The translations under genes were made by a program, and so were the position numbers. From Euglena gracilis (taxonomy: Eukaryota), in NCBI GenBank assembly GCA_039621445.1, contig CP154954.1, forward strand, positions 45,549,847 to 45,613,846: DNA of 64,000 nt, read 5' to 3'. The notes under the pieces are model-generated. The model was not told the DNA's origin and searched no databases. It saw nothing but the letters and a program-made list of their open reading frames with translations. Below, piece after piece: positions 13,600-59,800 of the stretch (position 1 is the stretch's first letter; every line of letters begins with the position of its first letter).

Positions 13600-13970
13600 G
13601 TTGCTCATTGAGGTCTTTTTTTTGAGTGATGGAGAAATTCAAATATTTTCCAACATTCCAATTCCAAGTGCGAAAAAGCACGCGCTTTTCGCTGGCCACG
13701 ATTGACCGAGAATGCCTCCACCACCGTGCTGCTCTGCCCAAAATTCCAGGGGTTTTGGAGGTCACGGATCAGCACCTGTTGTGCTGCACATTCAAAAAAC
13801 CTTTGCAAGTGGCACACTTCAATCTGAGACTTTCTTAATTCCTTGGCACAACGATGTAGCTTCCAAGCCAAGAAGGAACAACGGTCTGACGAAAACACCC
13901 GCCTGGTCACATTTTTTTTCCACGCCTTGATGGCGACGGACCCATGGCGATTGACTTCACCATTTGTCAC
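13600..13970 (-). pseudogene. Probable central fragment of the same hAT transposase
   Basis: Degenerate VAI[K]AWKKNVT (catalytic D.W position) and ECAA[Q]..LIRDL (CxxH motif), collinear with the C-terminal fragment. Confidence 0.5.
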
Positions 13971-14464
13971 ACCCTACATTGTACCCTCGTCGCAAAAGCA
14001 GTTCCCACGTTTCAATGTCCATCGGAATCACCCCCAACCACCAAAACGGTGAAGTTCACCGGTGGAGTCCCCCCGTACAACCGACTGAAATTTCCGGCCC
14101 CTGAAATTTCACGACATTTCACGATTTTTTACTTTTCTTTCCGACCACCTTTCACGAATGTCACCACCCCCCCCCCCCCCCCCGGGTGAAATTCACCATT
14201 TGAAACTTCACCGGGGGTCCGGACCCCCTCTCCAGGGTTGACGTCTTTTTTTTTGCATCTGTGAACAGAAGCCCGGCGCCTGCCCTGGGTTTCGTGGACA
14301 TGATCACGGATTACGGGGCATTAATTGGTTAATTAACGTCCTGATAATCGTGAACAACCTGTTCACGATCATCAGGCGTCCAGGTGAGCATGGCTTACTT
14401 CCTTACTCCACAATAGGCGAGGAACCCCCAAAATTTTGGTGTCCAGAAAATGTGGAATCAAACA

Positions 14465-20838: not shown

Positions 20839-21102
20839 CAGGCTTCTTTTTAAGACCCCCCGGGGGGGGGGAGGGGGGGTCCCCCCCACCCCCCCAAGGT
20901 GGCGCGGACCCCCCGGGGGGGGGGGGGACCCCCCCAAAATCGGGACCGTTAAAGACAATTTTCAAAAATTTTCGGCGCTTCACGCCGAAAAGGTATACCC
21001 AGCGCCTTCGGCGCGGGACCCCCCCCCCCTGGGGGGTCCGGCCCGGACCCACCCAGCCCCCCTCCCCCCCGGGGGGGGTCAGGTGACTTAAAAAGAAGCC
21101 TG
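20839..21102. mobile_element. hAT-type MITE, TIR caggcttctttttaag
   Basis: Perfect TIRs; flanks ccttcgac / ccatcgac (7/8 TSD). Confidence 0.88.
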
Positions 21103-23590: not shown

Positions 23591-23602
23591 TTGAGGGGTG
23601 AC

Positions 23603-23784
23603 TACCACCCCCCCCCCCTTTATTGTCCCCCCCCCTTTATTGTCCCTGGGCCCCGGCCGACGGGGGGTTTTTTTGGCCCGGCCAATGAAATTCCTTTGGT
23701 ACCCCTTTATTGTCCCCCCCCCTTTATTGTCCGGTCGGGCCTCCCGGGGGCAGGTCGGTGGGACAATAAAGGGGGGGGGGGGTA
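23603..23784. mobile_element. MITE with tacc(c)ntttattgtccc / gggacaataaa(g)nta termini
   Basis: Inverted termini with internal ccctttattgtcc repeats. Confidence 0.75.
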
Positions 23785-31936: not shown

Positions 31937-32137
31937 ATGTCACAAACTCAAGAGACGCAGTGCACACAGCTCATCCATTATGATGGTGTCCACATTGGCC
32001 AAAAGGAATTGAAGGAGGCTCTGGAAAAGGGCAACACGGATTCCCAAGTTGAGCACATGAAGCAGATGATCATGCTCCATCTCAATGGTGAACCTCAAAG
32101 TGCCATGCTGATGACTTTCATCCGATTTGTGCTACCC
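31937..32137 (+). CDS. COPB1: beta-COP exon 1 ([15 protein letters not shown]...IRFVLP)
   Basis: Matches beta-COP N-terminus; 3' boundary set by nonconventional intron geometry and could slide a few nt. Confidence 0.92.
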
Positions 32138-35100
32138 AGCCAGGCTCGTGTTTGAAGGGTCAAGGTTGCAAGTGGTGAAAAAGCAATGGCCACCACATCG
32201 GAAAGAACAGGTCACTAGTTGAGGAAGTAGGAAGTTTCCTCCCTAACCCTGAGGTCATCACTCTGCGTAAGGTCCATCCTTCGTCAAATCAAGCCTGGTG
32301 TTAAGCAAGATCACAAATTGAAGAAGTTGACTCTTTATTTTCTGGAGATCATCGACAAAACCGACTCCTCCGGCAAGTTGCTGCCAGAGATGATATTGGT
32401 CTGCAATTTCATCCGAAATGACCTTCAGCACGCCAATGAATATGTTCGAGGCTGCACCCTCCGATTTGTGAGCAAAATCCGTGAACAGGAATTGGTGGAG
32501 CCCCTGACAGATTCAATCATGGCAAACTTGGACCACAGGTGTGTATCCCCTTTCATGATGACACTATCGCAGGGGGAACACTTGAATGGAAAAAATTGTG
32601 GGTAATATTCTGAACAAAATTTTGTCCAGGATTTTTTCTGCCGTTTTAAGGATCCGCCCAGAATTTTTCCGGCCAACTGAAGGAGAATGGTGAACTCCAA
32701 TTTTTTTCTTCGGCGCTTTGTGTTGATTCTTGGAATGCATTTTTGTTCCAAACCCCCTAGATGGTGTATTGGAGGCTAGGCACAGAGGGGGAGGGGAGTC
32801 CGAGGGCGACCGTGCGCACCACGCGGAGCCTAAAAGCGGTGATTTTGGGTCCAAAAAGTGGTAATTTCTGGCCATTTTTGGACCATTTTCGATCAAAAAA
32901 TGCTTTTAGGGCCGTGCGCAGAGCGCGCGGCACCCAAATTTGCCATTTTATATCCGAAAATGGTCATTTTTGGCCATTTTTGGATTGTTCAATCAGAAGA
33001 ATGGTCAGAAAAATCAGAATCGGACCATTTGGCACTGTCTGATGATGTCGAATCCCTCTAATCATCTGACACACACAAATGTCCTGGAGTTTGCCTATCC
33101 TTCATCATGAAAATTTGCCAAAAAGTTTCAAAAAATTTCTACACACAAATTGTGGCTGAGCCCAGATTTCAGCCTGAAGACGTGTTCAGGAGGGGGCCCC
33201 CGAAGGGGCCCCCTGAACACGTTTTCAGGGCAAAATTCATTGTCCTAGATGGTTGAAACAGTCATACGAGCACCTTAGGGACATTTTTGGGCACTTTTGG
33301 TGACATTTTTTTGGAATGAAAACCGGACGCCGGGTTTTGGACAAAACCGGCGTTCCTAACGCCGGGTTTTAGGACAGAACTGGCGTCCGGAAAACCCGTG
33401 GGGGGGACGCCGGTTCTGTCCTGAACCCGGCGTCTCAAACGCCGGTTTAATGGAAAACGTGTCATTGCCACAAATGCCCTCATGGAAAACGTGCCTGAAC
33501 ACAGATGCCTTAATGGAAAACGTGTTCATGACCACGAATTTCAGGGCAGGCATTTGGCGGGCTGAACACGTTTTTAAAAAATTTCCGGCGCCGGGCCAGC
33601 CACTTTTTCATTTTCGGGCCTACCCCACCCCCCAGGGAAGGGCGGCCTTGGCCAGAAAACCAGTCAGTCACTCTGAAAAACCAGTCAGTCACCCCCCGGG
33701 GGGATGGGGTGGGACAGGTGTTAAGCAATGGTATGGACCCCGTTTGGCAGGTGTCTCAACCCCCCCAGGAAGTTCAAAAAAGCAGTTGAACTGTATGGAA
33801 GAGGAATACCCTTCAGACAGTTTCCTGCAGTCGATTCCCAAGACACTGATCTGATGCTGCTCAGATTGGGAATTTTTTGCCAAAATTTTGGACATTTTAG
33901 ATTTCCACTTTTCCTGTGGGGTTCTGGAAGCGTTTTGAACTGGACAAAGGCTTAATTTTGGGGTCATATGATCACAACTCGCTGAAATTAGGATGTCCTG
34001 TTTCATTTTTTTTGAACATACGGGGTTATTTGGCAACTGTTAAAAACGTGTTCAGCCCGCCAAATGCCTGCCCTGAAATTTGTGGTCATGAACACGTTTT
34101 CAATGAGGGCATTTGTGGCAAGGACACGTTTTCAGTGAAGGCATCTGTGTTCAGGCACGTTTTCAGTGAGGGCATTTGTGGCAAGGACACGTTTTCAGTG
34201 AAGGCATCTGTGTTCAGGCACGTTTTCAGTGAGGGCGCCGTTTTTGGGGTCCGAATTTCACAAATTCGCGTTTTTGACCCCTTGCGTGAATCATGACCAC
34301 GAATTTCAGGGCAGGCATTTGGCGGGCTCTGAACACGTTTTTAAACAAATTGTGGCTGAGCCCAGATTTCAGCCTGAAAACGTGTTCAGGGAGCCCCCTT
34401 CGGGGGCCCCCTGGCTGAACACGTTTTATATAGAAATAGATGGATACGATCCCGATTGTCTGGATGTTCGCTTATATATCAAGGACTGTGTCCCAGGCAC
34501 CGGCAGAAATCTAAGGCCATCTGCTGAAAGCCCTTGAGAAGAGCTTTCGATCGATGGGCAACATGGCAGCTGAAAGGTGGAATTTCAAATTTTCAAACAG
34601 GGTCGGAAAATGTGATCGCTGATTTTCAGAGAGCTGTGCAATGTGGCTGAGTTCTGTGGGTTCCAAGCGAAAGGTCTTGGTGAGAGCTTTCGTTTGATAT
34701 GGAATATGTAAACCCTCCCCCCAAATAATACCCCCCCCCCTCGGGTCCGACTTCGGCCGCCGAAATAATACAGGGGGGAGAAATTGCACATCGGGAGGTC
34801 AAAAATTGCACAAAATTGCACAAAATTGCACAAAATTGCACAAAATTGCACATACCAGAAAAGCCATACCAGAAACCAGAAAAGCTGCATATTTTGCCAA
34901 TTTACCCTGGTCGGTTCGCCCAAAAAGTTGCAACACAAGCAGCCGTGGCAATATGCCATGGCAACACTTGCGCCATTCATCCTGAACTTGTTCATCATCC
35001 AGCGGAAGACACAACAATTCATACTTAGAAATTACCAAGGCACAAAATACAAGCCTATTTGTAGAATGCCTATTGCTCCTTTGCCAATTGGCCGATTGGG

Positions 35101-38100
35101 TTTGAAAACTGAGTAAACCAACAATAAACAGCCTTTGAACGGAAATTTTCACTACGCACATCAGTGTCCCAGCAAAAACTACCCCTGCTACCCATATATT
35201 GCAAAAACTGGCTCCAACACTAATCCATTGTGGGGGGGGTGGGGGGGGCGTGGGGGGGTTAATGTCCAACACCTCCAGAAAAAAAAACGGTAACTTCTCA
35301 ATTGCATCAAAAACTGACATTTTCCAAAACAAAATGTCCTGGGCCATGTGCAATTAATTGCATGTGCAATTAATTGCACAAGATTGCAAAAAATTGCACA
35401 TTTCGGGAAAATCGAAAATTGCTCAAAATTGCAAAAATTGCACGGTGCAATTTCCCCCCCCCCTGAATAATACCCCCCCCCCGGTTTCGGGCCGAAGTCC
35501 CGGATTTTTGACCTGAAAATGCAGGTAAAATCACAATATCTTGCAAAAAATTACGAAAAAATCGATTTTTCTGGATCATCTGGTCTCCAAAAAAAACTAA
35601 ATTTCATGAGAAAGTGCAAAAAATGACCCCAAAGGATTTTTTTGGCGCTATTTTTGCTCCTACGGAACTTCGAAAAATTTCGAAAATTTTTGGGAAATAA
35701 TACCCCCCCCTTGGGCCGGGACTTCGGGGGAAAAAATAATACCACGGGGGGTATTATTTGGGGGGGGGTTACCCTGAACTGTGGGATTTGACAAATTAAT
35801 ATGTCAAATTCGGGAATACACGATCGCTGAAAATAAGAGCTATGTGCATTATGGCCGAATTCTGTGGACATTTGTCGAAAGCCCTTGAGAAGAGCTTTCA
35901 ATTTATGAACAACATGGCTTCAGAAGTGTGGAATCTCCCAATTTCGACCGGTGGCCCAAAGTTGCCCAAAACTGCCCCGAACATGGGGATTTGGGGCGAA
36001 ATTGGCCGTGATTCCTCAGCCGCCGGTTCGGGCGTGAAGCCGGAGCGCCCTAGAAACCTTTCAAAAAACTGTGTCCCAGAGCCGGTTCAGGCGTGAAGCC
36101 ACGCTGCATGGTATTCTATTTTAGAAATCCCCAATATTAGCCAAAGGGAAATTATTGCGCAAAACCCCCCAATTTCTAGTCTAAGACCCCCCAAAAACTG
36201 CTCGAATATGATTACCACATGTCTACAAATCCTTTTGGACACTTTTTGGCACTTTTTATTTTGGATCCCCCAGACGCCGGCTTCTTGCCCGAACTGGCGT
36301 CGGGTTCGGGCGTGAAGCCGGAGCCCCCAGACACGGTTTCAAACAAAAAATTGGCAGGGTGCATCACCCATTTTTTCATTCGCTTGAAGAATATGGCACC
36401 CCCACACAGTGGGGCGAGTTTGCTGGTGGGGGCACCAATGTTTGCAATACCTCCCAAAACAGTGCATTTATCTTGGCAACTGGCAATTTCTCCCAAAAAT
36501 TTTCATGCTCTGGAGAACTCTCTGAGCACATCCCCAAGGGTCTTGTGGATCCCCTGCTGGAGGTGGGGTTTGGCCATTTTTGGCCATATTTTTCTTTGCA
36601 AAACACCGAAAATTTTTTCTGCCGCAAAATTGCGTGTGTCCGTGGCCCCAAAAGTGGGTCCCCAGATCCCCCCTCCCCCGGAGTCATAGGGGGGGGGAAC
36701 CCTCTTAGCATCGTTTCCCCCCCACCCCGGAGTCTCAGATGCATTTCACCAGCGTGTTGTTTTTTTCTGCCATCCTGCTCAGGCACTCTTATGTGCGGCG
36801 CAACGCAGTGCTGTATGCAAGGAGTTCCTTGTGTTCATTGTTCATTTGCTTTTGACCCAAACGCCACAAAAATTCCCGGGGCATTGATGATGTAATGACC
36901 TCAGTGACATGTGTGGGTTTCAAAATCAAAATGATTCACCTACTTTTGAAATGAAACAAAAGTCAAAGCAAGAAACAAATTCATCCATTTCCCCTTCACG
37001 GCAAAGTTGAATGCCACTTCACCAACCACCCATTTGTGTCATCCCCCCCCCACTGTCATTTTGGTTCAACCATTTCTGTTTCCTCGAAATGTTACCCCTC
37101 CTTTTCTCCCTGGATGGTTTTCTGGCGTTACTTCATGCTGTTGGTACGTTTATATTATGTTGTCTCTGTTTTGGGTTCAGTCAAGGGGCCCGGCCATCCT
37201 CTCCCTCCTCTGGAACTTATTGATTTTGTTTGATGGCTGTGTATCAGCGCTTTCCTCATTTGTTCCCGGATGCTCCAGAGCCAGGCCTTAACTTCAGGAT
37301 TTGCAGTCCCCCCCCCCCCCAGGGCTGTGTGGGAATTCCCGATGGTGGGGGTAGACCCCAACCCCCATCCTGGGTTGATGGGGAGGGTCCGGTCCGACAA
37401 CCGGAGGGGGGGGAGAATATGTGGAGCGCATATTTTGTGCCAGATTTTGTGCATTTTTACATATTTAGCGCATATTTCACTTATTTGGCAAAAAAGTGCA
37501 TATTGAACTTCTTTTAACCATTTTAGGCCATTTGTTTTCATTTTGGGGCATTTTTGGCCAATTTTTTTTGCCAGTTTTGGTCCATTTTGGGCCATTCTGA
37601 GCCACTGTGGCATTTGGTCATTTGGGCTATTTTCCATCGCAAAATCATCCCAATGCTGAAAACGACCGCAAAAATGGCCAAAAGGCAGTCAAAACGATCC
37701 AAAATGGCCCGAAATGATTGTGATGGTTCCAATAAAAATAAGCTGTGGAAAATATGCGGAAAATATGCGAGAATGGGCAAAATGTGTAGTAGGAAATTCC
37801 TGCAGCCCACCAAAATACGAGCTAAATATGCAAAAATATGCGAAATATTGTGGCCGGTTGTGAGCTAATATCACCCCAAAATGCCCAAAATGGCTTGAAA
37901 TGAATTGCCAGTTGGGTCACCTGAACATGTCCAAACGTGGCCCGATTTTGGAAAAATCACATATTTTCCGCATATTTTCCTGCATATTTAGCGCACATTC
38001 CCGCATGTTCTTTTGTATATTTTGGGGGGAGGTGGGGGTGGGTGGGTGCTATAGGGTGCCTGCCCCTAGCAGGCGCCCCCCGGGGGGGGGGGTGGGGGGA

Positions 38101-41100
38101 CCCAGAAAATTTTCATTGAAAATGGCCTTTTCCGGGCCGGGGTCGGAGGGAGGTGCCTGCTATGGGCAGGCACCCCCAAAAACCCTGCCCCCCCCGGGGG
38201 TCGGATGGGTGCCTGCCCCTGGCGCCCCCCCCCCTCCCCCCCCCTGGTCGGTAAGCACAAGCGTGCCCCCTCCTTTCCTGGCCTTTCCCCCGGAGGTGTG
38301 GACTACAGCTGGGTAGTCATCCCTGTGAAACGCTGTAGGAAGTTTTTTTCCAGTCGGGGGTGAGCTTTTTTCAAACGAGCGAAAATCCCAATCCAGTGGG
38401 GGTCCCCTGGGGGTTCCTCAAGCAAAGGCTTGCCCAAAGCTTGTTGAAGCCTCCTTGGACAAGGAGTCCTGCCAGGCAGTTTCTTTGGTCGAGTTATTGC
38501 CATTCTTACCAATGTTGACCGATTTGAATATTCCTTGTGGAGTCATGTTCAGGGGATTATTGAGGTGACAGGACACCTTTGGGCACATTTGAAATTGGCT
38601 TCATGTTTGAACTTTAAAAATTTTCTTTTCATTTTTATTGATAGAAAAGAACAGGAAGGTGTTAACGTCCCGAACATGCCTTTTTTTGACAATGATGTGG
38701 CAAATCGATTTCTGCATTTTGGCCTTTTTTCCTGATATTGCCTGCCCCAGATGTCACCACAAAGCGAAACTCTTTCTTGATGCTTTTCAACTGTGCCCAG
38801 GAGCGCGCTGTTCGTTATTTGCGAAAGGTGTGACCCTTCTCCTTTGCTACTTGTCTCAGAGATTCAGAGCTCAATTTGTTCAAATATCCAAGGGTCGGCT
38901 CTTTATTGACTTTGGTTCTTTTTCTTTGCAGGCAATTGATGTCGACATTGACCTTGCTGGGGAGCCTTTCCAGTTGGCACTTGTGGATTTACTGCGTCAT
39001 CTCTGCAAGACCAGCCCTGCTGAGAAGGCCAAGTACTTGTCAGTGATATTCGACTGGGAAGACGTTGCAGTGAGTGCTTGCATTGAATCATCCCACCTGG
39101 CATTGCACACCTCTTCCCAGCCCCAATCTGCTCTCTTCCCGCCACGCGGCAGTGCTTTTCCAGTGCGCATCAACGCTGCAATCCCTAGCGTCATCCCGGA
39201 CTGCAATCCGAGAGGCTGCCCACACCTTTGTGAAGCTTTTGACAACCCATGCTGACAATAACGTGAAGCTCATTGTTATCGATCGTTTGGAAGCCATAAA
39301 AAAGAGGTGTGTTCATGTGACTTTGTGGTTGATGCTACAATGTAGTCACCTCCTCATGCTTGAGCTATTTCTCAACATATCCAGTGCAAACATTTGCACC
39401 AGTTTTATTGGCATTACCCCAAATCCCAGAAGATTCCTTGGTGCTTGGGACAATTTTCTTCCCAGATTAGGCAAAGTGCCCTCTTTTTTGAATTTAAAAA
39501 AGCTGCTTTTTGTTGGAGACAGCCGATATTTTCCACTGTGGATAAAATTTGTGAACACCCAACCCAATCTCTAATTTTAATAACCAGGAAGAATCCACAG
39601 TGGTTTGAATGCCGCCTTTCACGCCACCTTAAAGTAATGGTGGAAACCAATTTTGAGCTGCCTCTTGCATATTTTCCACATGGTCCAACCCTGCTGCAGG
39701 TTCCCTGACATCTTGTGTGAGCTTCTGACTGATTTGTTGCGGACTCTGGCCTCCCCCAACATGGACCTGAGACGGAGGATCCTGGACCTGTCTCTGGATT
39801 TGACCACCAACCAGAACGTGGAGAAGGCGGTGCAGTTTTTGAAGAAGGAGGTGCTGCGGATGCAGGTGTGAAAAGCTGCTGTGGTCCGAAGTGGCGAAGT
39901 GGCAAAGTGATGAAGTGGCGATGTGCAATTAGAAGATTCACCAAAGTGGCATTTTGCGTAACACATTTGGCTGCTGAATGAGCTGGTTCTATTTTGCTGG
40001 GGATGTTTTTTGGGGGGGGATTCAGCAGGTCCCAGGAACCAAATTTGGAGCAATTTATGTTGGAAAATAATTTCCCCCATTTCACATGACTTTTTTTTTT
40101 CCAGAGGGACATTTGCAATGTGAATTTATTATGTGCAGTGACAAATACATATTCATAATCTGCCCAATAATGCACCCCAAAATAATATATATATATATAT
40201 ATGTATATATGTATATGTATATTAGGGGGGGGGGGTGTATGAAATATATATACCCCCCCTGGCTTCTGGTTTTGGATGCTCAAATAATATTCTCTTATGT
40301 TGTAATGGTATACAAGTTATGTAAACAAGAAAGATGTGAACCCCAGTCAGGTTTATATAAACTCTGTGTGTGTTCATGTTGCAAATGTATAAGAGAGAGA
40401 TTTTGAGCGCGATTGTGTCTTAAGATGGATACATACACAAAATTGGCCCCCCCCCAAATTCTTGGGCAGTTTCTGAAGTTGACACTTTTTTTTGATTTAT
40501 ATGTTGATGATTTCTTGATTTTATTGCACCAATCATTTTTGTCAAAGTATGCTCTTTTGGAACGGTTGATGATTTTCCCCTTGCTTGATTTTCTCCTGAG
40601 GTGTGGCAGGGAGGTATCACCATTTCCCCCCTTTCGAGCTGACCCCCCCCCCCGAGCTATTCCCACTGGGGGGAACTGTCATTGCATTTTTTTTTAATGA
40701 AGGACATGCAAAAACATGGCCAAAAAATCGATGTTTTCTGGACTTTTCAAAAATTCCTTTTTGGCAAATGTGCTTGAAATTTACCATTTTTTTTTTGCAA
40801 ACATCCAACAAAAAAGTTGCCGAAAATGACCCCTTTTGGGCTGTCCGAGGTCAGTGTCTGGGAAAAGATCACTGGGGGGCCTAGGTGCCCCCGCACTGTT
40901 CCCATTGGGCCATAAAGGGTTCCCGGGGACGGGAATAGCTCAGGGGGGCATGGTATTTGGGAAGGAGGCTGGGGGATATCATTTGGAGGCAGGGTTCCCA
41001 CTCTCAATCTCCTTTAACGTCAGGTGATTTTGCCATACAGGCGCTGTAAGTGTGCAATTGTTTAATTGAATGATGTCAAAAGTTTTGCCGTTTCTCTGTC

Positions 41101-44100: not shown

Positions 44101-44850
44101 ATAATATTAAATATTTTTTTTATTTATTTTTTTTTTCGGGCATTTTGGCAAAAAAATAAGATTTTTACAAGTTTTTTTTAATTTTTTTTAAAGTGCCTTA
44201 AAAGTGATTCCTGGTTTTGTTGTCCAATGAACAGAAGCATTGAAGAAATGAAAATTATCGGCAAAAAACAACATTTGATGCAAATTAATTTCAGGGAAAG
44301 TGGAAAATCAATTCCATTATTTTTTGGGGAGGGTCAGCCAATAGTTAGTTAAAACCCTGGGGTGGGAAGGATTATTTGGATTTTGGTAAAACCAAAGGGG
44401 TTATTATTCAGGGGGGCTTTAAATCCGAACCCTGTTACCCCCTTCCAAGCAATTTTGCCTCCCTGCAAAGTTAGGGGACGGATCTTTTTTTTTGCCTCTG
44501 CCCCCTACAGAGTTAGCCTAATGGGGGCCATTGTTCAGGGGGGAATGGGGTCCAGGCTTGTGCTTAGTCGGGTACCTACCCCACGGGGGGGGGGGTGCTA
44601 GGGGCAGGCACCCTAGAGCACCCACCCAGTCAGTAAGCACAAGCATGATAGGGTCAATGCGCCACCCTCGTGCCATCCTGTGCAGATATTGGCCAAGCTG
44701 ATTGATGTCTTTGGCAGTATTTCTTCGCCTAGGGTGCTTCGGATCTTGCTGTGGGTTCTGGGCACCTACTGCAAGTCTGCAGATGAGGTTTGTTCATGAG
44801 CCCCATGTGTGCGTGTGTGCGTGGCTGCGTGCACGTGCGTGCGTGCGTGC

Positions 44851-44890
<40 letters not shown>

Positions 44891-50800: not shown

Positions 50801-53800
50801 GTTTTTTTGCGTCGTTTTTTTAATGGCCGATGTAGCCCCCCCCCTCCCCCCCAGTGGTCCTGTGAGCTTCTCCAATAGTCTAACCTCGGTTTTACACAGT
50901 CTGCCTCACCTCATTTTGGTTTCGGAAAATAGCAGTACTATTTCAAAGGATGGGAAATCCACTAGTTTGAGCTCCAATTTCGCTTGTGTGGCCGACAGAT
51001 GGATGCAATGGAGATCGTCAACGAGCTCCTGCGCCTTGGGTCCCATTCCAAGCCCCCGATCGACAACGACTCCCATGAGCGGATCGTCTTGTGTCTGGCG
51101 CTGCTGCAGAATGCCAACACCGTTCCGGCCAAGGTCGAGAATTTATGCTTGGACACCATTTGGCACAGAACTTGAGCGTTCTTGTCCAGACCATAGAATC
51201 ATTTAGCACCTGTGTGGCCCCTCCCCCGGGGCAGGGCAGAACGGGAATCAACCGAACAGCCAGGGTGGTGGGTGGGGGGGGTCAACCCCCCCCCCCCACC
51301 CCCTGCACGGTGGGTGGGGGGGGGTCGACCCCCCCACCACCTCTTCCCGTATTTCCGGGAGCACCAATATTTGGACCCGAAAAATTTTTCCGGCGCCTTC
51401 GGCGCCGGGTGTTTTTTTTGACCCATTTTGGGACCCATTTTGGGACCCATTTTGGGACCATATAGGGGGTCCCCCCAAGAACCCCTGAAATGAACCTACT
51501 GAAATTGAATTGAAAGTCCAGAATTTTTCAACGAGAAAAAAATTTCAGTAAAATTTGACTGTGCCAAAATTTTGTCCACTTTTTTTGACCTTCGTTTTTT
51601 TCACCCCCCTCCTAAATATTGTCAATTTTTAACCCTGAAAATTTTGAGATTTTTTTGTGAAAAAAATGTCATTTTCCATCAAAAAATCATGTGTTTGGGG
51701 TTCATTTTTCAAAAAAAAATTCAAAAATTTTCCGGCCAATATCCCCGTTTTCCTGAAATCGGTGAAAATGCTGTGGTGGGTGGCGGGTGTCGACCCACCC
51801 CACCTCCCGGATGGGGGGGAGTCGACCCCCCCCCCCCCCCCCACCAGGCCTTCCCGTTCTGCCCTGCCCGGGGGGGGGGTGGGCGGGTGGTTGGGGCACC
51901 GGGACCAGGCTTGTGCTTAGTCGGGTGCCTACCCCGCGGGGGGGGAGAGGGTGCTAGGGGAATGCACCCCAAAGCCCCAGATCCGACCCCCCCGGGGGGG
52001 GGGTATTGTTTTGGGGGGTGCCTTCCCACAGCAGGCCCCCCCCCCCCCGCCCCCGGCGCCGGGGCCCCGGAAAAGGCCATTTTGAAAAATTTCTGGGTCC
52101 CCCCCCCCGGGGGGGTGTGCCTGCTAGGGGCAGGCGCCCTATAGCACTCACCCCCCCTCCCCCCCAGTCAGTGAGCACAAGCCTGACCGGGACCCCGTGG
52201 GGGAGGTGCACCATGAGTCAGGTTTTTGCCCGGCCGAAGCCCAGGCCGGAAATATTCTTTCTGTGTTTTGGGCCGATGCTGGCTGGAGTTTGTGTGGGTG
52301 GGTGGGTGGGTGGTTGGCCCCCCGGGGGGCGGTCGTGGGGGGGTGGGGTTTCGAAAAAAGTGGGTGGGTGGGTTTTCAAATAAAAGTGGGTGGGTGGGTT
52401 TGGGCCCAGGAAAAAGTTCCCCCTGGGGCAGGGGTTTTTTTTGTTTGTGGGGCTGGGGGGGGGGGGGGGGGTGGGGTGGTTGGGTCCGGCCGAGCCCCCC
52501 CCCCCCAGGGGGGGTCCCCCAGAGGGGGGGATATACTTTCGGCGCCGAAAAAGTGCTATTTTTAGCACTTTTCATGATTTCTCGGCCATTTTTTTTTTAT
52601 GGGTCCCCCGGGACCCCCCCCCCCCGGGGGGGCCCCCAGGGGGAGGGGGGGTGGGGGGGCCCCCCGGTCTGAAAAAAACCCCTGCCCTGGGGGGTCACTA
52701 AGTAAATCTATGATCCAGACTCAAGGCCCTCAGCTGTGATGAACTCCAGCAATACTGCTCAATCAGGGACAGCTTTTTCTCCCTCCATGTGCTGAAGGAT
52801 GCAAAGTGTTGATTTCTTTTTTTCCTTCAAACCCAAAATGCTCAATGGCCCAAATTGGGCTGTCAGTTCCAGGGCGGTCCATAAGGGACAGGATTTTTTT
52901 TTTAGTTAAGGACCGCCCCTCAAGGCCCCCCCCCCCAGGGCAGTTTTGGACCCGAAAAAAATTTTCCGGCGCCTTCGCCGCCGGGTGTTTTTTTTGCCCC
53001 ATTTTGGGACCCATATGCAGGCACCCATGGCTAAAATGGCCTAAAATGCCTAAAATGGCCTTAAATGGCCTAAATTGGCCTAAAATAGGGGAACTTTGGG
53101 GCTTGACCATAGGTGCTTGCCAAGGTTGACTGCTTGTTTTTTTGAAACAAAAAAAACCAGGTGTTTTTTTTAAAAAAAAGTGCTTTTTTAAAAAAAAACT
53201 TTTTTTTTTACAAAAACCACAACAAAAAGGCGTCACTTTTTGATGACCAAAAATGATTTCAGAACTTTTTCCTCAAAAAAATGGCCATTTCGCAAGGAAA
53301 ACTCCCTCAAAAGTTTTTTTTTTTTTTTTTTTTTAAATCCAACACCATTTTTCACACCTTCCAAAAAAAATCAACATCTTCTCAAACTGTTGACTTTGAG
53401 AGGTTTTGAAGCAAAAAAAAAAATGCCATTGAAAATCCAAAAAATTTGACAGAGAAAAAATGTCAGTAAAATTTGACTGTGCCAAAATTTGTTCCACTTT
53501 TTTTTGACTTTCGTTATTTTCCACCCCTCCTAAAACTACCAAATTTAACCCTGAAATCTTTGAGATTTTTCTGTGAAAAAAATGTGGTTTTCCATCAAAA
53601 AATCACCAATTTTTTCGGCTTCCAATTTTGTCGGTTCTAATTTTATCTAGCCCCAATTTTTTCCCCCCGGTATTTTGGGTTCATTTCTTCAAAAAATTTT
53701 AAAATTTTCAGCCCAAATCCCCCGTTTTCCCGAAATTGGTGAAAATGCTGCCCAAAACGTTGCCCAAAATCCCCCCAAACCCCATTTTTTTCACACCTTC

Positions 53801-56800
53801 TAAAATTTCAACATTTCTCATAGTTTTGATTTTGAGAGATTTTGGAAGCAAAAAATGCCACTGAAAATCCAAGAAATTTCCAAGAAAAAAAATGTCCGTA
53901 AAATTTGAATGTTTCAAAATTTGGTCCCATTTTTTTGACCTGCATTTTTTTGACCACCCTCCTAAAAACGAACAATTTTCAACCCTAAAAATTTGGAGTT
54001 TTTTTGGGGGAAAAATGTATGTATTTTGGGTGTTCATTTTTCAAAACATTTTCAAAAAAACCCCGCCCTTTTCCTTATTTTTTTGGTTGAAGTGTATGGG
54101 GACAGGATTTTTTTTTTTTGCTTAAGGACCGCCCTGGTCAGTTCCATCACCCCCCCTTCAGGGAAGTTAACGTATCTCCTGAGGTGGCAGGAGCATTGGA
54201 TTCTTGTGCAACGCGTTTGTTTTCTTTCTGCTTCCCCTTTTCCCTGTGGTGGGTTGGGGGGAAGAATTGTTGTTATTGTAGTTCAACTGTTACTGGTGTT
54301 GTGAGGTTATAAGGTTGGACGGTTTGGGAGAGTGCAACTGCTGCGCAGCACTTTTGAACTTCACTGAAAATCAGTCACCCAGGTGCAGGGATGTGTGGGA
54401 AGCCTGCGGTGCTGAGGTAGGTGTTAGGAGGAGGGTCCAGACCCCTATCTTGCATTTTACCGTATCGACACCTTATATTGGGTAAGGTGGTGGGTCCGGA
54501 CCGCCCTCCAGATGTTGGAAGGGGGTGTCTGGACCCACCCCCACTGCCTTTGGCAAGTTCCAAAAAATAGCGAAAAAATTTTCTTCCAGCACATACGCCA
54601 GAAAATGCAACAAAAAGGTCCCTTTCCTTATTTTCAAGCGTATTGCACATTTTTTGATGTTTTGGTGTTTTCCACATAAAAAATGAAAACAAGTACAAAG
54701 AATATTTTCGTTCTTGGATATTTTTTGAAGAAGGATCAGAGATTTTTTTCAACATATTTTGCCTGGTATTGGGTCCTTGACCGTCAACAAAACCAAACAA
54801 TTCCCCTGCCCTTTACGGTTTCGAGGTAGGAGGGAAGGTCCGAACCCCCCAGGGCTTCCCATACATCCCTGCCCAAGTGTGAAGGAAAACAAAATTGTGT
54901 TTTTTGCAACTTGTTGTTCGTTTCTTTTTTTTGCATTTTGTTTTCTTCTCCTATTGATTTTCTGTTCTGTTTGCTTCTTTGGATAGTATCAACCCAGTAA
55001 TTTGGTAAAAGGCGACCTTTGATTTTTGCCAGACGCCTGCTTCGGTTTGGAGTTGCTGCCAACCCTCCTGCTGCCCCAACAGGGCTTGAGAAGGGCAGGC
55101 ATCAGGGTGCGGCCCTCCTGGCTCAGTCCCCAGAAACAATTTCGCACAAACACGTTCATGCGCCATCTGTGCCTTGTATTAGTTTTGTGTAGCCTTGTTT
55201 TTGGGCCCCCAATTTTGTGCGATCTTTCACCATACGCATACATCACCACACGCAAAGTCCATCATCAACGTCTTGCACATTCCCAAAATCAAATTCAAAC
55301 CCAATGATCTCACGCCTGGAAGTTTTTTTTTGCCTTGAATACCGCCCAAAAGAATTGCCGTTTCAAAAAAGGAGTCATCAAAACAGGCAATATCATGGAG
55401 TGCGGCTCCATGACATTTCCCCTTCCCACCACGGCTTCGCATCCCTGGCCGGAGCCAACCGCCAAAACTTCGGAGCGGCCAAGCCCCCCCCCCCCCCGCC
55501 CTAGGCGCTGGTGGAGGGCTCCGTCAAGGCGTTCGCAGACATGCTGCAGGAGACGGCCACCACGGTGGTGGACGCCGGCACCGCCGCCCCGGCCGCCGCC
55601 AGCGTGCCCGTCGACTCCACCATCAAGTTCTCCCAGTTCTCCAAGGGTGTGCCGGGGAGGGGGGGGGGTGACAGGGGGGTCGACACGGGGCGGTGGGACG
55701 GTGTCGGCAACGGCACCGGCTGTACGGTGTTGCTGCTGCTCTGTACTGCACTGCACCCCCGCACGACACTGACGAAGGGGTCCCGGTTCTGGGCATTTTG
55801 GGATTTTTTTTTGGATTTCAATGCCATCCAAGGTCCAGCCATCCTGCACAAGGAGAAAACCAAATTTGCACAATATTATAAATACCTTTTTTTCGGAAGG
55901 GCGCTTCCATTTGGAACACTTTGATTTTTGGAATTCCATTTAAATTATGTATTTCAGGGACAGGGGGCTCTGAATTTCATCTGGGGGGGATGGGGTTCGG
56001 GTGATGCACCAGCGCTTATTGCTGTTGTTTTTTTTCGAAGTTTCTATTTTATGAGTTTTTTCCTTTCATTTTTTCTTCCAGTGCTCCTCAAAGAAAAAAC
56101 ATGACATATTGTCTCCGTCAAATATTTTTTATGCTTTTTGCAAAATGTTTTCAGTGAAGCTTTTTTTTGAAAAGAAGTTACGTATATCCAAGTCCCCTCT
56201 CAAAAAAAAAAGAGCCAAGGGACAGAATTTGTTAGGGGGTAGTTCCAATCAGGGTTTTTTTTTTAAGTCTTGGACCCTCGGGGAGGGGGGAGGGGTCTGG
56301 CCGAGCCCTCCTCCCCCCCAGAGGGGGGTGGGATATACTTTTCGGCACCGAAAGCGCCAAAATTTTTTAAAAAGGTGCATTTTTTGCATTTTTCACGATT
56401 TTTTGGCCTTTTCGCGGGAAAAATGGGTTGGGTTCCCTGGTTTTCGGGGAAAAGTGGGTTGGGTCCCCTGGACCCCTCCCTGGGGGGGGCGCCCCCCCCC
56501 CCAGGGGTAGTGGGTTGGTTGGGGGACCCTTCCTCCCCCCCCCCCGGTCTTAAAAAAACCCCAACCCACTCCTTAATCACAGTGGGGGGGGGGCTGGACC
56601 GAACCCGGAGGATTCCCCAGAATGTCATTTTTTTTTTTTTTTTTTTCTCTTCCAGACCCCCAAAATGCCCCAAATGCTTAAAATGGCATTTGGAGTCGAA
56701 ATGGGGACAGGGATTTTTTTTGCTCCAGCGCTTTGTTCCAGACCAAAAATGTTCCATTTTGGCTGTGTTTGTTACGGTAGAAGCCACCCCCCTTGACTGG

Positions 56801-59800
56801 AGGGGTCCAGCCCTTGTATCGAACCCTGGGGGAGTACTTTCATCAGATTTTTTTTGTGATTTGCCCCTTCGAAATCAAATGAGTGATCCGTACCGCTAAA
56901 GCATCACAGGGTCCACGCGTCCGTTCCATGTGGTCGGGGACCCAACTCCAACGAGCAACCCCACCTCTGGATTTGCTTTTGACGACGCTGGCTTCCTTTC
57001 CCTGTGTGCTGCAGACAAACACAATCGACTGGAAGAGGAAGATGAGACGGAGGATCCGAGTGCCGCAATGCTTTCTGGGGTAAGCCCAGAAGCCCGGATC
57101 GGTATTGGGAAGGCATGCCCACAGGATTTGCTGCAATCCAGTTTCATGTGCGGATATCGCTGAGCATGGCCCTGGCCTGGCGAGAAGTTTCACAGCTCAG
57201 GGGCCCCTGGGGTCTATCTGGGGGCGGTCTTATATTTGGGAGGGGTAAATTTGGAGTTTGTTGCCCTCCTGCTGCAGGCTTCTGCTTAAGGGTTCGCAGT
57301 ACCCCCCCGGGCTGCAGCTCGTCCAATTTTGGCTAGTGGAAATCCTAGTGGACCCCCCTTGGGGGGATCTGTTAGGACTAGTAGTAGCAGGACTATCCAG
57401 GTGGAGAATTTTTCCAGTGACCAGTGCGAAGTGCCGAGTTTTTTTGGACCCCCCAAACTGGCCAAAAAAAATCTCATTTTGGTCAGTTTTGGTTGTTTTT
57501 TTTTTAGAACTAAATCAGCCAAAAAACCCATCAAAAACCTGATTTCCACCTTGGCGCAGCGCTGGAGGAATTTTTTTTCCTGTCGGGACCCCCCCCCCCC
57601 AGGGGGTCTAGCAAGTCCATTTTTTTTCCAGTGTCTGGCAAAATGACCACCCAGTGGACCCCCCCGTCCTTAAGAAAAGACCCGGCTGGGTGTCAGGCAT
57701 TTGCCTTGCGGCAGCAGCACAGACCAGCCTTGCTGGAGCAAAGGGAAAGAAGAGCGCCTTCATTTCCCGCCTGGACAGGTGTTCTGTTGCCTCCTTTCGC
57801 ACGCCTGCAAGGCAAGGCAAGGCGCTGTGCTGCAACAATTCTGCATACGCTGGACTCTTGCCACTGTAAGTCAGTCCTGGCAGCACCCCCTCTGTGTGCC
57901 GGGCCGCAGGGTCATCCAGCTGACGGGCTTCTCCGACCCGGTGTATGCGGAGGCCATGGTCACCGTCAACCAGTTCGACATCTCCCTGGACATCCTCGTC
58001 GTCAACCAGTCCTCCCACCCAAGGCATTGCTCAAAGGATATGCAAAGAAGTTGGAATTGCAAGAAGTTGTGAAAAATTTATTTCTTGTTTCTCTTGCTCT
58101 TTTGGATACCTTGAATCGAGGGGGTGGGTCTGACTGTGAGGCTGAAGGGTGGTGCTCTACATCCAAGTGGAAAAGCACTCATGTTGCATGTGCTTTTCCG
58201 TGGATTCATTGTCGGTTTTGATGGTTCCTGGACTTCCGCATGTTGTCTGCACATCTACACCCACAACTTGCTGGACTGGCTGGAGGCGAAGCAAAGACAT
58301 ACCCACAAGGAAAATTTTGAGACCCCCGGGGAGGGGGTCCAACCCCTTCAGGGAAAAAGGTGCTGGTGCCCCCACAAAAGATCCTTGGGCAGACTGCGCT
58401 GTAACTGTGCATTCTTTGGTAAAAAAAAATGAGAATAGAAACACCGAGTGCCTTTCTTCCAGTTCCCAGGTAGCTGTTTTTCTGGGGGTTGGACATTTCG
58501 ACACGCAGCGGTATGATGGGGGAGGGGGTCACCCCCCCCCCCCCAAAGCCTTCCCGACAGCTTTGGGGGTCCAGCTGACTGATGGGCTGGACCCAAAGGC
58601 AAAGAAGCAAATCCAGCTGAGAATTTCCGTAGGAGAAAAAATGCCCCAAAACACACCCCTCCCATCGCCCTTTATTAACCCTTCACATTTCTGCCGGAAA
58701 CGTCTGGGCCTTGGCTAGAGCCAGCGAGCTGCAACTTGGACCTGCAGCTTTGTTTTCATTCATGAAAATAAGTCCAAAGGTGTTCCAACTTATCGCCCAC
58801 AACTCGTTGGTTGTTCTCATCAAAATCCAATACTTTGTTAAGCGTCATAGCGCAATCTGCTACACAATGGTGCGCATGGGAGATTTGCTGCAAGAGTGGG
58901 TGCTCCATTGGGAGGTTTGCAACTATGCGCTGAATCGTGTTAGTGGGGTGTACGGGGGTATCCCAACGTGGGGTGTACGGGGGGTGTCCCCTAGGTCTTC
59001 CGCATCATTGTCCATGGGTTGAACGGTACCTGCGTTTGCGGGCACCATGCAACGAATTTCTGGATGTCAGGGCAATGTGGGAAAGGACCCAGTATCAGGT
59101 ATTGCTGGCAACTGTCCGTAAGGACTTGGAGGGGGAGCGCAGGGGGGAACACCCTTCCCTCGGCTGGTGGAAAAAGACGCTGGTTTCCTGGATTCCCCTG
59201 GGTGGGGGGGGGGGCAGTGTCCGTTTCACTCCCTCACAGTTTTAACATTTTTTTTGTTTTCCTGTTGTTTTATTTTTTGTTTGCATTTTGTGCAGTTTTT
59301 ATTTTATTATTTTTGAAAACCGATATGTTTCATGCTTGCACTCATTTTTTTTCTTCGATTTTTATCAATTTTTCACATGTCTTTGGCCCTCCGTATTTGC
59401 ATTTTTTTTGCATCTTTTCTTTCACATGCTTTTCAGGTCATCGCGAAAAAAGGGTCTAAATGTGGCGGAGTTGCAGCACAGATCCACATGCCTTCTTCAT
59501 TCCTTCCCTCTGTTCGAATGGGAGGCGGTCTTATTACACATTTGATTCTCGTTGCAATTGGTGGGCTTTTGGCCACCTGAGGAAGAGTGCCTTGGGATCA
59601 TTTGCTGCAAAGCCTCACGGTGGAGCTGGCGACCCAAGGGGACCTGAAGCTTTGTGAGCGGCCGGAGACATACACACTGGCCCCCAAGGAGCAGGTCAAC
59701 ATGCGGGTCAACATCAAAGTTTCGTCGACCGATACAGGTGTGATACGTATGAGGAACGTTTTAGAAACTCGAAAGAAAATTTTGCCCTTGACATTGGGGG

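What the first reader, a model, noticed from the sequence alone, without database searches (positions are those of the whole stretch)
32130..59610. Nonconventional introns look like self-neutralising hAT MITEs: splice geometry removes the element plus exactly one 8-bp TSD
Seen: all six non-GT-AG introns pair +4..+6 with -8..-6 (CAG/CTG, CAA/TTG, CAG/TTG or TGG/CCA). That leaves 3 nt outside the stem on the left and 5 nt on the right. Seen: seven MITEs from six TIR families begin CAGG, nearly all end CCTG, and they carry perfect or eroded 8-bp TSDs (20839, 44553, 51232, 51906, 52870, 54386, 60614); a fossil hAT transposase is also present. Established: CAG(G) termini with 8-bp TSDs are typical of hAT elements, and euglenid nonconventional introns have the CAG(+4)/CTG(-8) stem; a MITE origin has been suggested in general terms. 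Inference: 3+5 = 8, so cutting at these sites keeps 5 nt of the left TSD and 3 nt of the right TSD, regenerating the pre-insertion codons exactly. This would be a transposon-tolerance and intron-generating system whose splice sites are set by TIR structure rather than GT-AG. I do not know whether this arithmetic link has been published.
Basis: partly seen in the sequence, partly recalled or inferred. Interest (0 to 1): 0.92.

Follow-up and report, generated by a model that had tools for sequence, protein, structure and literature searches.

The report
Transposon-derived nonconventional introns in a euglenid gene
In a euglenid coatomer gene, one odd non-GT-AG intron is a copy of a small hAT-type transposon, and the published cutting rule for such introns would remove the transposon plus exactly its 8-base target duplication, which could explain how these insertions stay harmless and become introns.

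Summary
The window carries a beta-COP gene with 23 complete introns. An eighth non-GT donor runs off the window. All 7 NC introns have a stem starting at +4/-6, against 2 of 16 GT-AG introns. All seven listed MITEs are real, with 13-21-bp CAGG-type TIRs and 8-bp TSDs matching at 5-8 of 8. An unbiased scan added two more. A frameshifted hAT transposase C-terminus lies at 11046-11595.

The 3+5 spacing is already shown experimentally (Nomura 2025), and a MITE origin with "TSD-like" repeats is already proposed (Milanowski 2014; 2024 review). In the papers I could search or read, none links this to hAT or to an 8-bp TSD.

New here: intron 4 (37279-38437) belongs to the same MITE family as the TSD-flanked element at 60614. 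Its length is element + 8, and it keeps a 6/8 TSD in exactly the predicted register. Intron 1 also has family-type termini and element + 8 length, but no TSD (1/8). The other five show nothing. There are no RNA data for introns 1-11, and no genome-wide test was possible. The idea is plausible and testable, but not proven.

The parts
31937..61559 (+). beta-COP (coatomer beta) gene, partial. It has 24 exons, 23 complete introns, and intron 24 runs off the window.
   Evidence: ortholog P0001, Pfam adaptin/coatomer domains; RNA joints for introns 12-23.
32138..32302 (+). NC intron 1 (165 nt), N3=AGC, CAG/CTG. Its termini belong to the CAGGCT-type MITE TIR group. Length is element (157) + 8. TSD is only 1/8.
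   Evidence: Absent in relatives P0002 and P0003. No RNA check.
36815..37227 (+). NC intron 3 (413 nt), CAA/TTG, TSD 3/8.
   Evidence: Absent in relative P0125. No RNA check.
37279..38437 (+). NC intron 4 (1159 nt). It is a MITE of the 60614 family (element 37282-38432, 1151 nt) plus 8 nt. Stem is CAG/TTG.
   Evidence: Absent in relative P0125. No RNA check.
37274..37281 (+). Left TSD copy of intron 4 (TCCAGAGC): 5 exon nt plus the 3-nt spacer.
38433..38440 (+). Right TSD copy of intron 4 (CCCAAAGC): the 5-nt spacer plus 3 exon nt. It matches the left copy at 6/8.
   Evidence: Random P(>=6/8) = 0.008.
38026..38266 (-). Truncated copy of the 51906/44553 MITE family, nested inside intron 4.
   Evidence: 73% over 239 nt.
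38470..38749 (+). NC intron 5 (280 nt), CAG/CTG, TSD 1/8. An intron at the same site is apparently present in relative P0125.
39052..39124 (+). NC intron 7 (73 nt), TGG/CCA, TSD 2/8.
57058..57718 (+). It has an 8-bp stem from +4/-6 (TGC/GCA) and TSD 2/8. It holds a decayed 60614-family copy from 57275.
   Evidence: joint in X1, X21 45 reads, X24 16 reads; none in X20.
58017..59599 (+). NC intron 21 (1583 nt), CAA/TTG, TSD 2/8. Its interior is at single-copy depth in the DNA run.
   Evidence: joint 58015->59599, slide 2; X21 64 reads.
61560..64000 (+). 5' part of intron 24. The donor is non-GT, CAG lies at +7..+9, and the 3' end is outside the window.
   Evidence: loose ends at 61559.
6504..6944 (.). 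MITE-like element, TIR 15 bp, TSD 6/8 (new).
20839..21102 (.). MITE, TIR 21 bp (2 mismatches), TSD 7/8.
44553..44647 (.). MITE (95 bp) in intron 11, TSD 7/8. The right end reads CATG.
51232..51866 (.). MITE in intron 17, TIR 16/16, TSD 7/8 (low-complexity target).
51906..52185 (.). MITE in intron 17, same family as 44553, TSD 8/8.
52429..52684 (.). MITE in intron 17 (new), TIR 13/13, TSD 8/8.
52870..54136 (.). MITE (1267 bp) in intron 17, TSD 8/8.
54386..54871 (.). MITE in intron 17, TIR 19 bp (1 mismatch), TSD 7/8.
60614..61049 (.). MITE in intron 23, TIR 15/15, TSD 5/8. It is the family reference for intron 4.
11046..11595 (-). Fossil C-terminal part of a hAT transposase, with two frameshifts.
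   Evidence: three collinear tblastn HSPs to P0025, E 1.3e-45. P0025 carries PF05699. Direct Pfam hit to PF05699 has E 0.025, below the cut-off.
9475..13976 (-). Candidate limits of the fossil hAT element (TIR 11/14 with 10 consecutive matches; TSD only 3/8). Inconclusive.

Best explanation
The window shows a euglenid beta-COP gene in which hAT-type MITEs are both passengers inside ordinary introns and, in at least one case (intron 4), the intron itself.

PROPOSED MECHANISM.
- A MITE with CAG(G)...(C)CTG termini inserts and duplicates 8 bp of target. This is shown for nine elements here.
- When the target is an exon, the TIRs pair in the pre-mRNA.
- The euglenid nonconventional splicing machinery cuts 3 nt upstream of the first stem pair and 5 nt downstream of the last. 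This is shown by others through knock-in mutagenesis.
- Because 3+5 = 8, the excised piece is the element plus one TSD copy, and the pre-insertion codons are restored in either orientation of the element. This step is inferred. It is directly visible for intron 4, where the spliced junction reads exactly as the left TSD copy.
- After fixation, only the stem and the spacer lengths are constrained, so the spacers, TIR details and interior decay, and further MITEs can nest inside. This fits the five NC introns that keep only a stem.

OPEN POINT. Whether hAT MITEs are the main source of NC introns genome-wide is not shown.
For: 1. The geometry is established independently. The code 5'-N3CDG-/-CH'GN5-6|R is defined by knock-in mutants: the 5' spacer is intolerant of +/-1 nt and the 3' spacer is optimal at 5 (PMC12501133, abstract and section 8).
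2. Nine CAG...CTG elements in the window have 8-bp TSDs at 5-8 of 8, three of them perfect. The blind scan is bimodal.
3. A hAT transposase fossil lies in the same window. hAT elements are defined by short TIRs and 8-bp TSDs (PMC3942097, passages).
4. Intron 4:
   - Its 5' 45 nt match the 60614 MITE at 35/45. Two bona fide copies (60614 and 57275) match each other at 33/45.
   - BLAST places the match at the very terminus.
   - Its 3' arm is 16/25 to the same TIR.
   - Intron length minus element length is 8 (1159-1151), independent of the register chosen.
   - The flanking 8-mers match 6/8 (random P 0.008), with both mismatches in the intronic 5-nt spacer.
5. Intron 1: its termini align with the same TIR consensus (alignment A1; 14/20 ungapped), and 165-157 = 8.
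6. Genomic gene calls from relatives read straight across the sites of introns 1, 3 and 4. They stop at conventional intron 2 and run into an intron at the intron 5 site. So introns 1, 3 and 4 look lineage-specific, while intron 5 (TSD 1/8) looks older.
7. TSD position 6 becomes the first base of the 3' exon, where the published code needs a purine. It is G in 8 of 9 MITEs (G is 25% of the window). The exon start is a purine in 7 of 7 NC introns.
8. In the DNA run, MITE-bearing bins have summed depth of 30,000-215,000, against about 60-600 in unique bins, at >=95% likeness. This suggests many near-identical copies. The tool warns that this is not a copy number.
Against: - Only 1 of 7 complete NC introns has a detectable TSD. 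The other six total 11/48 matches, which is chance level (about 26%).
- With seven introns tested, 6/8 alone has a family-wise P of about 0.055.
- Intron 1 has MITE-type termini about 70-80% like the consensus and seems lineage-specific, yet its spacers match the flanking exons at 1/8. Simple neutral decay does not explain this.
- Four of 7 stems do not begin with CAG (CAA twice, TGG, TGC), and only 2 of 7 fit the strict published code.
- Intron 24 has CAG at +7 rather than +4, although its 3' end is unseen.
- The published code tolerates a 6-nt 3' spacer, and 3+6 = 9.
- The TSD consensus here does not resemble the hAT target consensus I recall (recalled, not checked).
- Introns 1-11, including intron 4, were mapped by an ortholog protein and not by RNA of this organism.
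- P0125 comes from a 2.8-kb assembly contig whose DNA or RNA nature I inferred and could not verify.
Confidence: 0.6

Rival explanations
1. Coincidence plus occasional exaptation. NC introns as a class do not descend from hAT MITEs. The machinery recognises any terminal stem, and a MITE that lands in an exon sometimes supplies one (introns 4 and 1). The equality 3+5 = 8 is then a lucky fit and not the reason for the geometry.
For: - Five of 7 NC introns show no MITE family and no TSD.
- Four of 7 stems are not CAG-type.
- Intron 21's interior is at single-copy depth.
- The published code allows N5-6.
Against: - CAG/CTG is the consensus of NC introns genome-wide in E. agilis, and 84.4% of introns there carry junction direct repeats (PMC12501133 section 5). 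About 44% would be expected by chance (my estimate).
- Both family-assignable introns here have element + 8 length.
- The MITE target preference puts G at the position where the code needs a purine.
Confidence: 0.25
2. RNA-level spread. NC introns, which are excised as circles, propagate by reverse splicing or retro-insertion and carry their own 3-nt and 5-nt spacers. No TSD is made in this route. The MITEs are DNA-mobilised derivatives of such introns, or share termini with them only because the termini are the splicing signal.
For: - Intron 1 has family-type termini but no TSD.
- Introns 1 and 4 share the same 3-nt spacer, AGC.
- Circular excision products are reported (review PMC11282704, passages).
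Against: - Intron 4's spacers match its own flanking exons (3/3 and 3/5), as a TSD predicts.
- The 5-nt spacers of introns 1 and 4 differ.
- Nine elements outside exons carry site-specific 8-bp TSDs, and a hAT transposase fossil is present.
Confidence: 0.08
3. The MITEs belong to another superfamily with 8-bp TSDs and not to hAT. Merlin, which is reported in Euglena gracilis, is the obvious candidate.
For: Two Merlin families with 8-bp TSDs are described in E. gracilis (PMC8101967, passages).
Against: - All Merlin TIRs start with GG (same paper). All nine elements here start with CAG, and the CA/TG dinucleotides are inverted, so they are part of the TIR.
- The only transposase remnant found in the window is hAT.
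- The splice arithmetic would be unchanged under this rival.
Confidence: 0.05

Closest known systems
Euglenid nonconventional introns (Milanowski et al. 2014, PMC3935182; Nomura et al. 2025, PMC12501133)
   Same: Non-GT-AG borders, a terminal stem with CAG at +4..+6 and CTG at -8..-6, 3-nt and 5-nt spacers, a purine at the 3' exon start, and junction direct repeats. A MITE-like origin and a role in neutralising insertions are already proposed.
   Different: In what I read of those papers, there is no superfamily assignment, no TSD length, and no statement that the two spacers sum to the TSD (word searches for hAT and TSD). Here a specific intron is tied to a specific TSD-flanked MITE family.
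Introner elements of Micromonas and Aureococcus (Huff et al. 2016, as described in review PMC11282704)
   Same: A DNA transposon inserts into an exon. One splice site comes from the element and the other from the TSD, so splicing removes the element plus one TSD copy.
   Different: Introners use GT/GC-AG and the spliceosome, and have 3-nt TSDs. Here the cut sites are set by distance from an RNA stem, the borders are arbitrary, and the TSD is 8 bp.
MITE-derived non-canonical introns of Fritillaria borealis and Amoebophrya (review PMC11282704)
   Same: Mass intron gain from TIR- and TSD-bearing elements with non-GT-AG borders.
   Different: Those are reported to be removed by an adapted spliceosome. 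Their TSDs are 3-5 nt.
hAT superfamily MITEs (features as in PMC3942097)
   Same: 8-bp TSDs, short TIRs, no coding capacity, nesting in and near genes, and a hAT transposase remnant in the same window.
   Different: No autonomous partner with matching TIRs was identified. The target-site pattern (Y at position 2, G at positions 5-6, C/G at position 8) is unusual.

Membership tests
Euglenid nonconventional introns | Borders are not GT/GC-AG in any register compatible with the mRNA. | tested here: met
   Seven of 23 complete introns. Introns 19 and 21 are confirmed by RNA joints. Introns 1, 3, 4, 5 and 7 rest on ortholog mapping.
Euglenid nonconventional introns | A stem pairs +4..+6 with -8..-6, giving 3-nt and 5-nt spacers. 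| tested here: met
   Met in 7 of 7, with runs of 3-9 pairs. Only 2 of 16 GT-AG introns reach 3 pairs; random is 6.8%.
Euglenid nonconventional introns | The strict published code, CDG...CH'G. | tested here: inconclusive
   Two of 7 fit strictly (introns 1 and 5). Intron 4 is CAG/TTG (G-U wobble). Introns 3 and 21 are CAA/TTG, intron 7 is TGG/CCA and intron 19 is TGC/GCA. The paper finds the code in 61.2% of NC introns.
Euglenid nonconventional introns | A purine at the first base of the 3' exon. | tested here: met
   Seven of 7.
Euglenid nonconventional introns | Excision as a full-length circle, after the conventional introns are removed. | not testable with these tools
   Known from the review. 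Not visible in the output.
hAT-superfamily MITE | 8-bp target site duplication. | tested here: met
   Nine elements: 8/8 in three, 7/8 in four, 6/8 in one and 5/8 in one. Random P(>=7) is 0.0013.
hAT-superfamily MITE | Short TIRs (10-25 bp). | tested here: met
   13-21 bp with 0-2 mismatches. The criterion is from PMC3942097.
hAT-superfamily MITE | A hAT transposase in the genome. | tested here: met
   Fossil at 11046-11595, with E 1.3e-45 to P0025, which carries PF05699. The direct Pfam hit is below the cut-off (E 0.025).
hAT-superfamily MITE | TIRs shared with an autonomous hAT element. | tested here: inconclusive
   The candidate ends 9475/13976 start C/TAGGG, but the TSD is only 3/8 and there is no match to a MITE family beyond the first 5 nt.
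Merlin MITE | The TIR starts with GG. | tested here: not met
   All nine elements start with CAG. The rule is from PMC8101967.
Introner elements (spliceosomal) | GT/GC-AG splice sites supplied by the element and its TSD. | tested here: not met
   No GT-AG or GC-AG register exists for intron 4 or intron 1.

The most novel reading that the evidence does not exclude
The euglenid nonconventional splicing system is a ruler-type RNA excision machinery whose two fixed spacers (3 and 5 nt) are matched to the 8-bp TSD of resident hAT-type MITEs. Every such MITE that lands in an exon, in either orientation, would then be born as a frame-restoring intron. This would be the main reason why most introns in some Euglena genomes are nonconventional.

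Two further concordances fit this reading:
- The MITEs' target preference puts G at TSD position 6, exactly where the splicing code needs a purine.
- Cutting the same TSD position at both junctions would explain the same pyrimidine|purine consensus reported at both intron ends.

A side speculation, from arithmetic only: 3 nt on the 5' strand against 5 nt on the 3' strand is a 2-nt 3' stagger across the helix axis, which is the geometry of RNase III-type cuts.
Probability: 0.45. Interest if true: 0.85.

Novelty: new variant of a known kind. Interest (0 to 1): 0.7.

Why it matters
The origin of euglenid nonconventional introns and the nature of their splicing machinery have been open questions since the 1990s. 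If the 3+5 spacing equals the hAT TSD length for a reason, three things follow.

- Origin becomes specific. It changes from "MITE-like" to one superfamily, with quantitative predictions: 8-mer identity in one register, slide ranges bounded at 5 and 3 nt, and empty alleles equal to one 8-mer.
- Intron load is explained. It would show how a genome can tolerate, and then accumulate, hundreds of thousands of exon insertions.
- It adds a second mechanism. Alongside spliceosomal introners, this would be a mechanistically different case of transposons that arrive already spliceable.

It also suggests a simple engineering rule for synthetic introns in Euglena. Intron 4 of this gene is a concrete locus for such tests.

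Tried and rejected
- WHOLE GENOME. None is held for this window, so no genome-wide intron or MITE test was possible.
- RNA LAY, FIRST TRY. I then laid 44110-64000. Introns 1-11, including intron 4, therefore have no RNA check.
- SEQUENCING RUNS. In one search no listed holder is on record as RNA. The runs used were chosen by their share of words and by species label.
- MITE EXCISION FROM RNA. None of the 15 listed joints skips an intronic MITE plus 8 nt. However, 1963 joints were not shown and intron depth is low, so this says nothing either way. The three listed non-gene joints (45887->46938, 51845->52034, 52054->63293) also occur in the DNA run or lie in repeats, and I set them aside.
- PFAM. 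Twenty ORFs from 9.5-16.5 kb and 21.8-23 kb gave nothing. A regex search for hAT motifs gave only false hits.
- OTHER GENES. The first 31 kb is mostly repeats, and I could map no second gene for more introns.
- EARLIER FINDINGS OF THIS SCAN. Nothing relevant turned up.
- PAPER SEARCH, CALL 52. It was badly posed: 'euglen' as a whole word matches nothing. It is uninformative.
- INTRON 1, ALTERNATIVE TSD REGISTER. GTGCTA and GTGTTA, offset by 4 nt, was rejected because it would imply a frameshifted ancestral gene.
- INTRON 9. It scored one point higher as non-GT-AG. I rejected that in favour of the GT-AG register 39866-41283.

Full report
WHAT THE REGION IS.
The window is nuclear DNA of a euglenid. 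On the + strand, from about 31.9 kb to beyond the window's end, lies a beta-COP (coatomer beta) gene. A search with exon 2 found a full-length, transcript-derived ortholog: P0001, 945 aa, 97% identical, with adaptin/coatomer Pfam domains. tblastn with P0001 and a junction-enumeration script gave 24 exons and 23 complete introns.

I laid RNA reads and contigs from three runs (X1, X21, X24) and contigs of a probable DNA run (X20) on 44110-64000. They confirm introns 12-23: 12 of the 15 listed joints are these introns, each is seen in all three RNA runs, and none is seen in X20. Introns 1-11 rest on the ortholog only.

CHECK OF THE INTRON OBSERVATION.
Sixteen introns are GT-AG. Intron 9 was assigned GT-AG by inspection, one BLOSUM point below the top register, and has no RNA check.

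| Intron | Coordinates | Stem |
|---|---|---|
| i1 | 32138-32302 | CAG/CTG |
| i3 | 36815-37227 | CAA/TTG |
| i4 | 37279-38437 | CAG/TTG |
| i5 | 38470-38749 | CAG/CTG |
| i7 | 39052-39124 | TGG/CCA |
| i21 | 58017-59599 | CAA/TTG |

The RNA joint for i21 (58015->59599, slide 2) includes the chosen register.

Intron 19 is joined 57056->57718 in RNA (ends CG..AG, slide 1; 45 reads in X21, 16 in X24, one X1 contig, none in X20). In the slid register 57058-57718 it has a perfect 8-bp stem starting at +4/-6 (TGC/GCA).

An eighth non-GT donor follows exon 24 at 61560. Its 3' end is outside the window, because the next exon's sequence is not in the window. Its CAG sits at +7.

Runs of consecutive pairs from +4/-6 are 6, 3, 8, 8, 8, 8 and 9 in the seven NC introns. 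Among the 16 GT-AG introns, 2 reach three pairs and none goes further. Random position pairs reach three pairs 6.8% of the time. The first base of the 3' exon is a purine in 7 of 7.

CHECK OF THE MITE OBSERVATION.
For each of the seven listed starts, a partner end was found, with a 15-21-bp TIR (0-2 mismatches) and flanking 8-mers matching at 7, 7, 7, 8, 8, 7 and 5 of 8. Random 8-mer pairs in this window reach 7 or more with P = 0.0013, and 6 or more with P = 0.008. Six of the seven end CCTG; the element at 44553 ends CATG.

A blind scan of every CAG...CTG inverted pair (>=12 of 14, 40-3000 bp apart) returned 34 pairs. Their TSD scores are bimodal: 25 pairs score 0-4 and 9 score 5-8. The scan recovered six of the seven and added two new elements, 52429-52684 (8/8) and 6504-6944 (6/8; two alternative left ends).

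In the DNA run, bins holding these elements have summed depths of 30,000-215,000, against about 60-600 for unique bins, at >=95% likeness. This points to many near-identical copies, although the tool warns that it is not a copy number.

CHECK OF THE hAT FOSSIL.
- A six-frame reading of 9.9-14.4 kb showed a frameshifted hAT-like C-terminus.
- Pfam gives PF05699 (hAT dimerisation region) as the only hit for 10920-11219(-). The hit is below the cut-off (E 0.025, 14.8 bits).
- A database search with the adjoining ORF found P0025 (279 aa, 58% identity, E 1.5e-31), which carries PF05699.
- tblastn of P0025 gives three collinear HSPs from 11595 to 11046 in two changes of frame (E 1.3e-45).

So the fossil is real. 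Candidate element ends at 9475 and 13976 (TIR 11/14 with ten consecutive matches, starting C/TAGGG) have a TSD of only 3/8 and remain inconclusive.

Merlin elements with 8-bp TSDs exist in E. gracilis, but all Merlin TIRs start with GG (PMC8101967, passages). The elements here start with CAG. hAT is therefore the better assignment: short TIRs of 10-25 bp and 8-bp TSDs (PMC3942097, passages).

WHAT IS ALREADY KNOWN.
- Milanowski et al. 2014 (PMC3935182, passages) proposed MITE-like elements as the source of NC introns. They noted direct repeats at most junctions and placed the conserved CA/TG at +4,+5 / -7,-6.
- The 2024 review (PMC11282704, passages) calls CAG/CTG a TIR and the junction repeats "TSD-like".
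- Nomura et al. 2025 (PMC12501133; abstract, sections 5 and 8, discussion passage) found 71.8% NC introns in E. agilis and junction direct repeats in 84.4% of introns. By knock-in mutagenesis they defined 5'-N3CDG-/-CH'GN5-6|R: the 5' spacer does not tolerate +/-1 nt, and the 3' spacer is best at 5. They suspect that the machinery mitigates transposon insertions.
- None of the passages I saw names hAT, gives a TSD length, or states that the spacers sum to the TSD. Word searches inside these papers for hAT, TSD and "target site duplication" found nothing relevant. Six library searches found no such paper; one search was badly posed.
- Supplements were closed. Subscription-only papers are not covered.

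NEW EVIDENCE FOR THE LINK: INTRON 4.
BLAST of all NC introns and MITEs against the window matched the first 44 nt of intron 4 to the very terminus of the MITE at 60614 (82%, E 3e-6). It also matched an internal part of intron 4 (38026-38238) to the 51906/44553 family, which is a nested insertion.

Ungapped, the 5' 45 nt of the intron 4 element match 60614 at 35/45. That is as close as 60614 is to another copy of its family at 57275 (33/45). The 3' arm matches the same TIR at 16/25.

If the element ends are defined by this homology (37282-38432, 1151 nt) and the amount removed by the ortholog protein (1159 nt), the difference is 8, independent of register. The 8 nt before the element (TCCAGAGC) and after it (CCCAAAGC) match 6/8. 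Both mismatches are in the intronic 5-nt spacer. The 3-nt spacer equals the first 3 exon nt, which is why the junction slides by 3. The spliced junction reads exactly as the left copy.

COMPARATIVE HINT.
Gene calls from related genomes read straight through some intron sites.
- P0002 (from a 489,897-bp contig; 90% identical) and P0003 join exons 1 and 2 and then run into conventional intron 2.
- P0125 (89% identical in the region searched; 2.8-kb assembly contig) starts inside exon 3 and joins exons 3, 4 and 5. It then runs into sequence translating as G-Q-A at the intron 5 site, which is compatible with a spacer followed by CAGGC.
- Upstream of exon 3 the P0125 ORF does not continue into exon 2, and conventional introns are reported to be removed first. 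I therefore read this contig as genomic. That is an inference.

On this reading, introns 1, 3 and 4 are lineage-specific and intron 5 is older.

EVIDENCE AGAINST, OR MISSING.
- TSD scores in the 3+5 register are 1, 3, 6, 1, 2, 2 and 2 of 8 for introns 1, 3, 4, 5, 7, 19 and 21 (intron 19 counted by hand). Without intron 4 that is 11/48, which is chance level.
- With seven tests, the 6/8 of intron 4 has a family-wise P of about 0.055. Its weight comes from the independent TIR homology.
- Intron 1 is a problem for the simple model. Both its arms align with the CAGGCT-type TIR consensus (14/20 ungapped to 60614), its length is element + 8 (165-157), and it looks lineage-specific. Yet its spacers match the flanking exons at only 1/8.
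- Four of the seven stems are not CAG-type. CAG/TTG (intron 4) is a plausible wobble intermediate towards CAA/TTG (introns 3 and 21), but TGG/CCA and TGC/GCA are not simple derivatives.
- Intron 21's interior is at single-copy depth.
- Intron 24 has CAG at +7.

ADDITIONAL CONCORDANCES (post hoc, small n).
- TSD position 6 becomes both the intron's first base and the first base of the 3' exon. It is G in 8 of 9 MITEs, while G is 25% of the window. The published code requires a purine there.
- Cutting both junctions at the same TSD position would also explain why the same pyrimidine|purine pattern is reported at both ends of NC introns. In the window it is Y|R in 5 of 7 at each junction.
- A 95-nt TSD-flanked MITE folds with its stem starting exactly at CA/UG and the TSDs unpaired. 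Intron 7 folds with its ends brought together.

VERDICT.
The arithmetic is sound and rests on two independently established facts, and one intron in this gene is a direct worked example. Generality is untested, and one apparently young intron contradicts the simple expectation.

Relative to the literature I could read, the specific hAT / 8-bp / 3+5 link appears to be unstated. The broader ideas are already published: MITE origin, TSD-like repeats, neutralisation of insertions, and introner-type "element plus one TSD" splicing. I rate it a new variant of a known kind, with interest 0.7.

Noticed in passing
It has an 8-bp stem from +4/-6 (TGC/GCA) and holds a decayed copy of the 60614 MITE family from 57275.
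   Followed up: yes
window 61560-64000: Intron 24 starts with a non-GT donor and has CAG at +7..+9 and not at +4. The next exon, seen as RNA loose ends at 61559, is not in the window.
   Followed up: partly
The second has two alternative left ends (4599 and 6504) because the region is part of a larger repeat.
   Followed up: partly
TSDs of the nine MITEs (see parts): There is a target-site pattern: C/T at position 2 in 9/9, G at position 5 in 7/9, G at position 6 in 8/9, and C/G at position 8 in 9/9. It is not palindromic. Three of the targets lie in G/C runs of other MITEs.
   Followed up: partly
window 43880-44107: A (TATAC)n microsatellite of about 45 copies inside conventional intron 11. 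It blocked the first read-laying request.
   Followed up: no
window about 700-9900: Repeated blocks of roughly 1.7-1.9 kb with near-identical long ORF-like stretches. For example, 2717-3151 resembles 4452-4874, and 3364-3720 resembles 5097-5453. Nature unknown.
   Followed up: no
window 21766-23785: A G+C-rich stretch (67% in 22-24 kb) with overlapping long ORFs on both strands, up to 395 aa. The 395-aa ORF has no Pfam hit.
   Followed up: partly
window 45737, 55537, 59676, 61514, 61519: Exonic single-base differences seen in roughly a third to two thirds of the RNA reads. The first three also appear in a DNA-run contig. They look like alleles or strain differences and not like editing.
   Followed up: no
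window 32138-32140 and 37279-37281: Introns 1 and 4 share the same 3-nt spacer (AGC) before CAGGC, and intron 5 has TGC. In intron 4 the spacer equals the downstream exon; in intron 1 it does not. Unexplained.
   Followed up: no
proteins P0002, P0003, P0125 (relatives): Genomic gene calls of related euglenids lack introns 1, 3 and 4. They keep conventional intron 2 and an intron at the intron 5 site. This gives a small presence/absence series for NC intron gain in one gene.
   Followed up: partly
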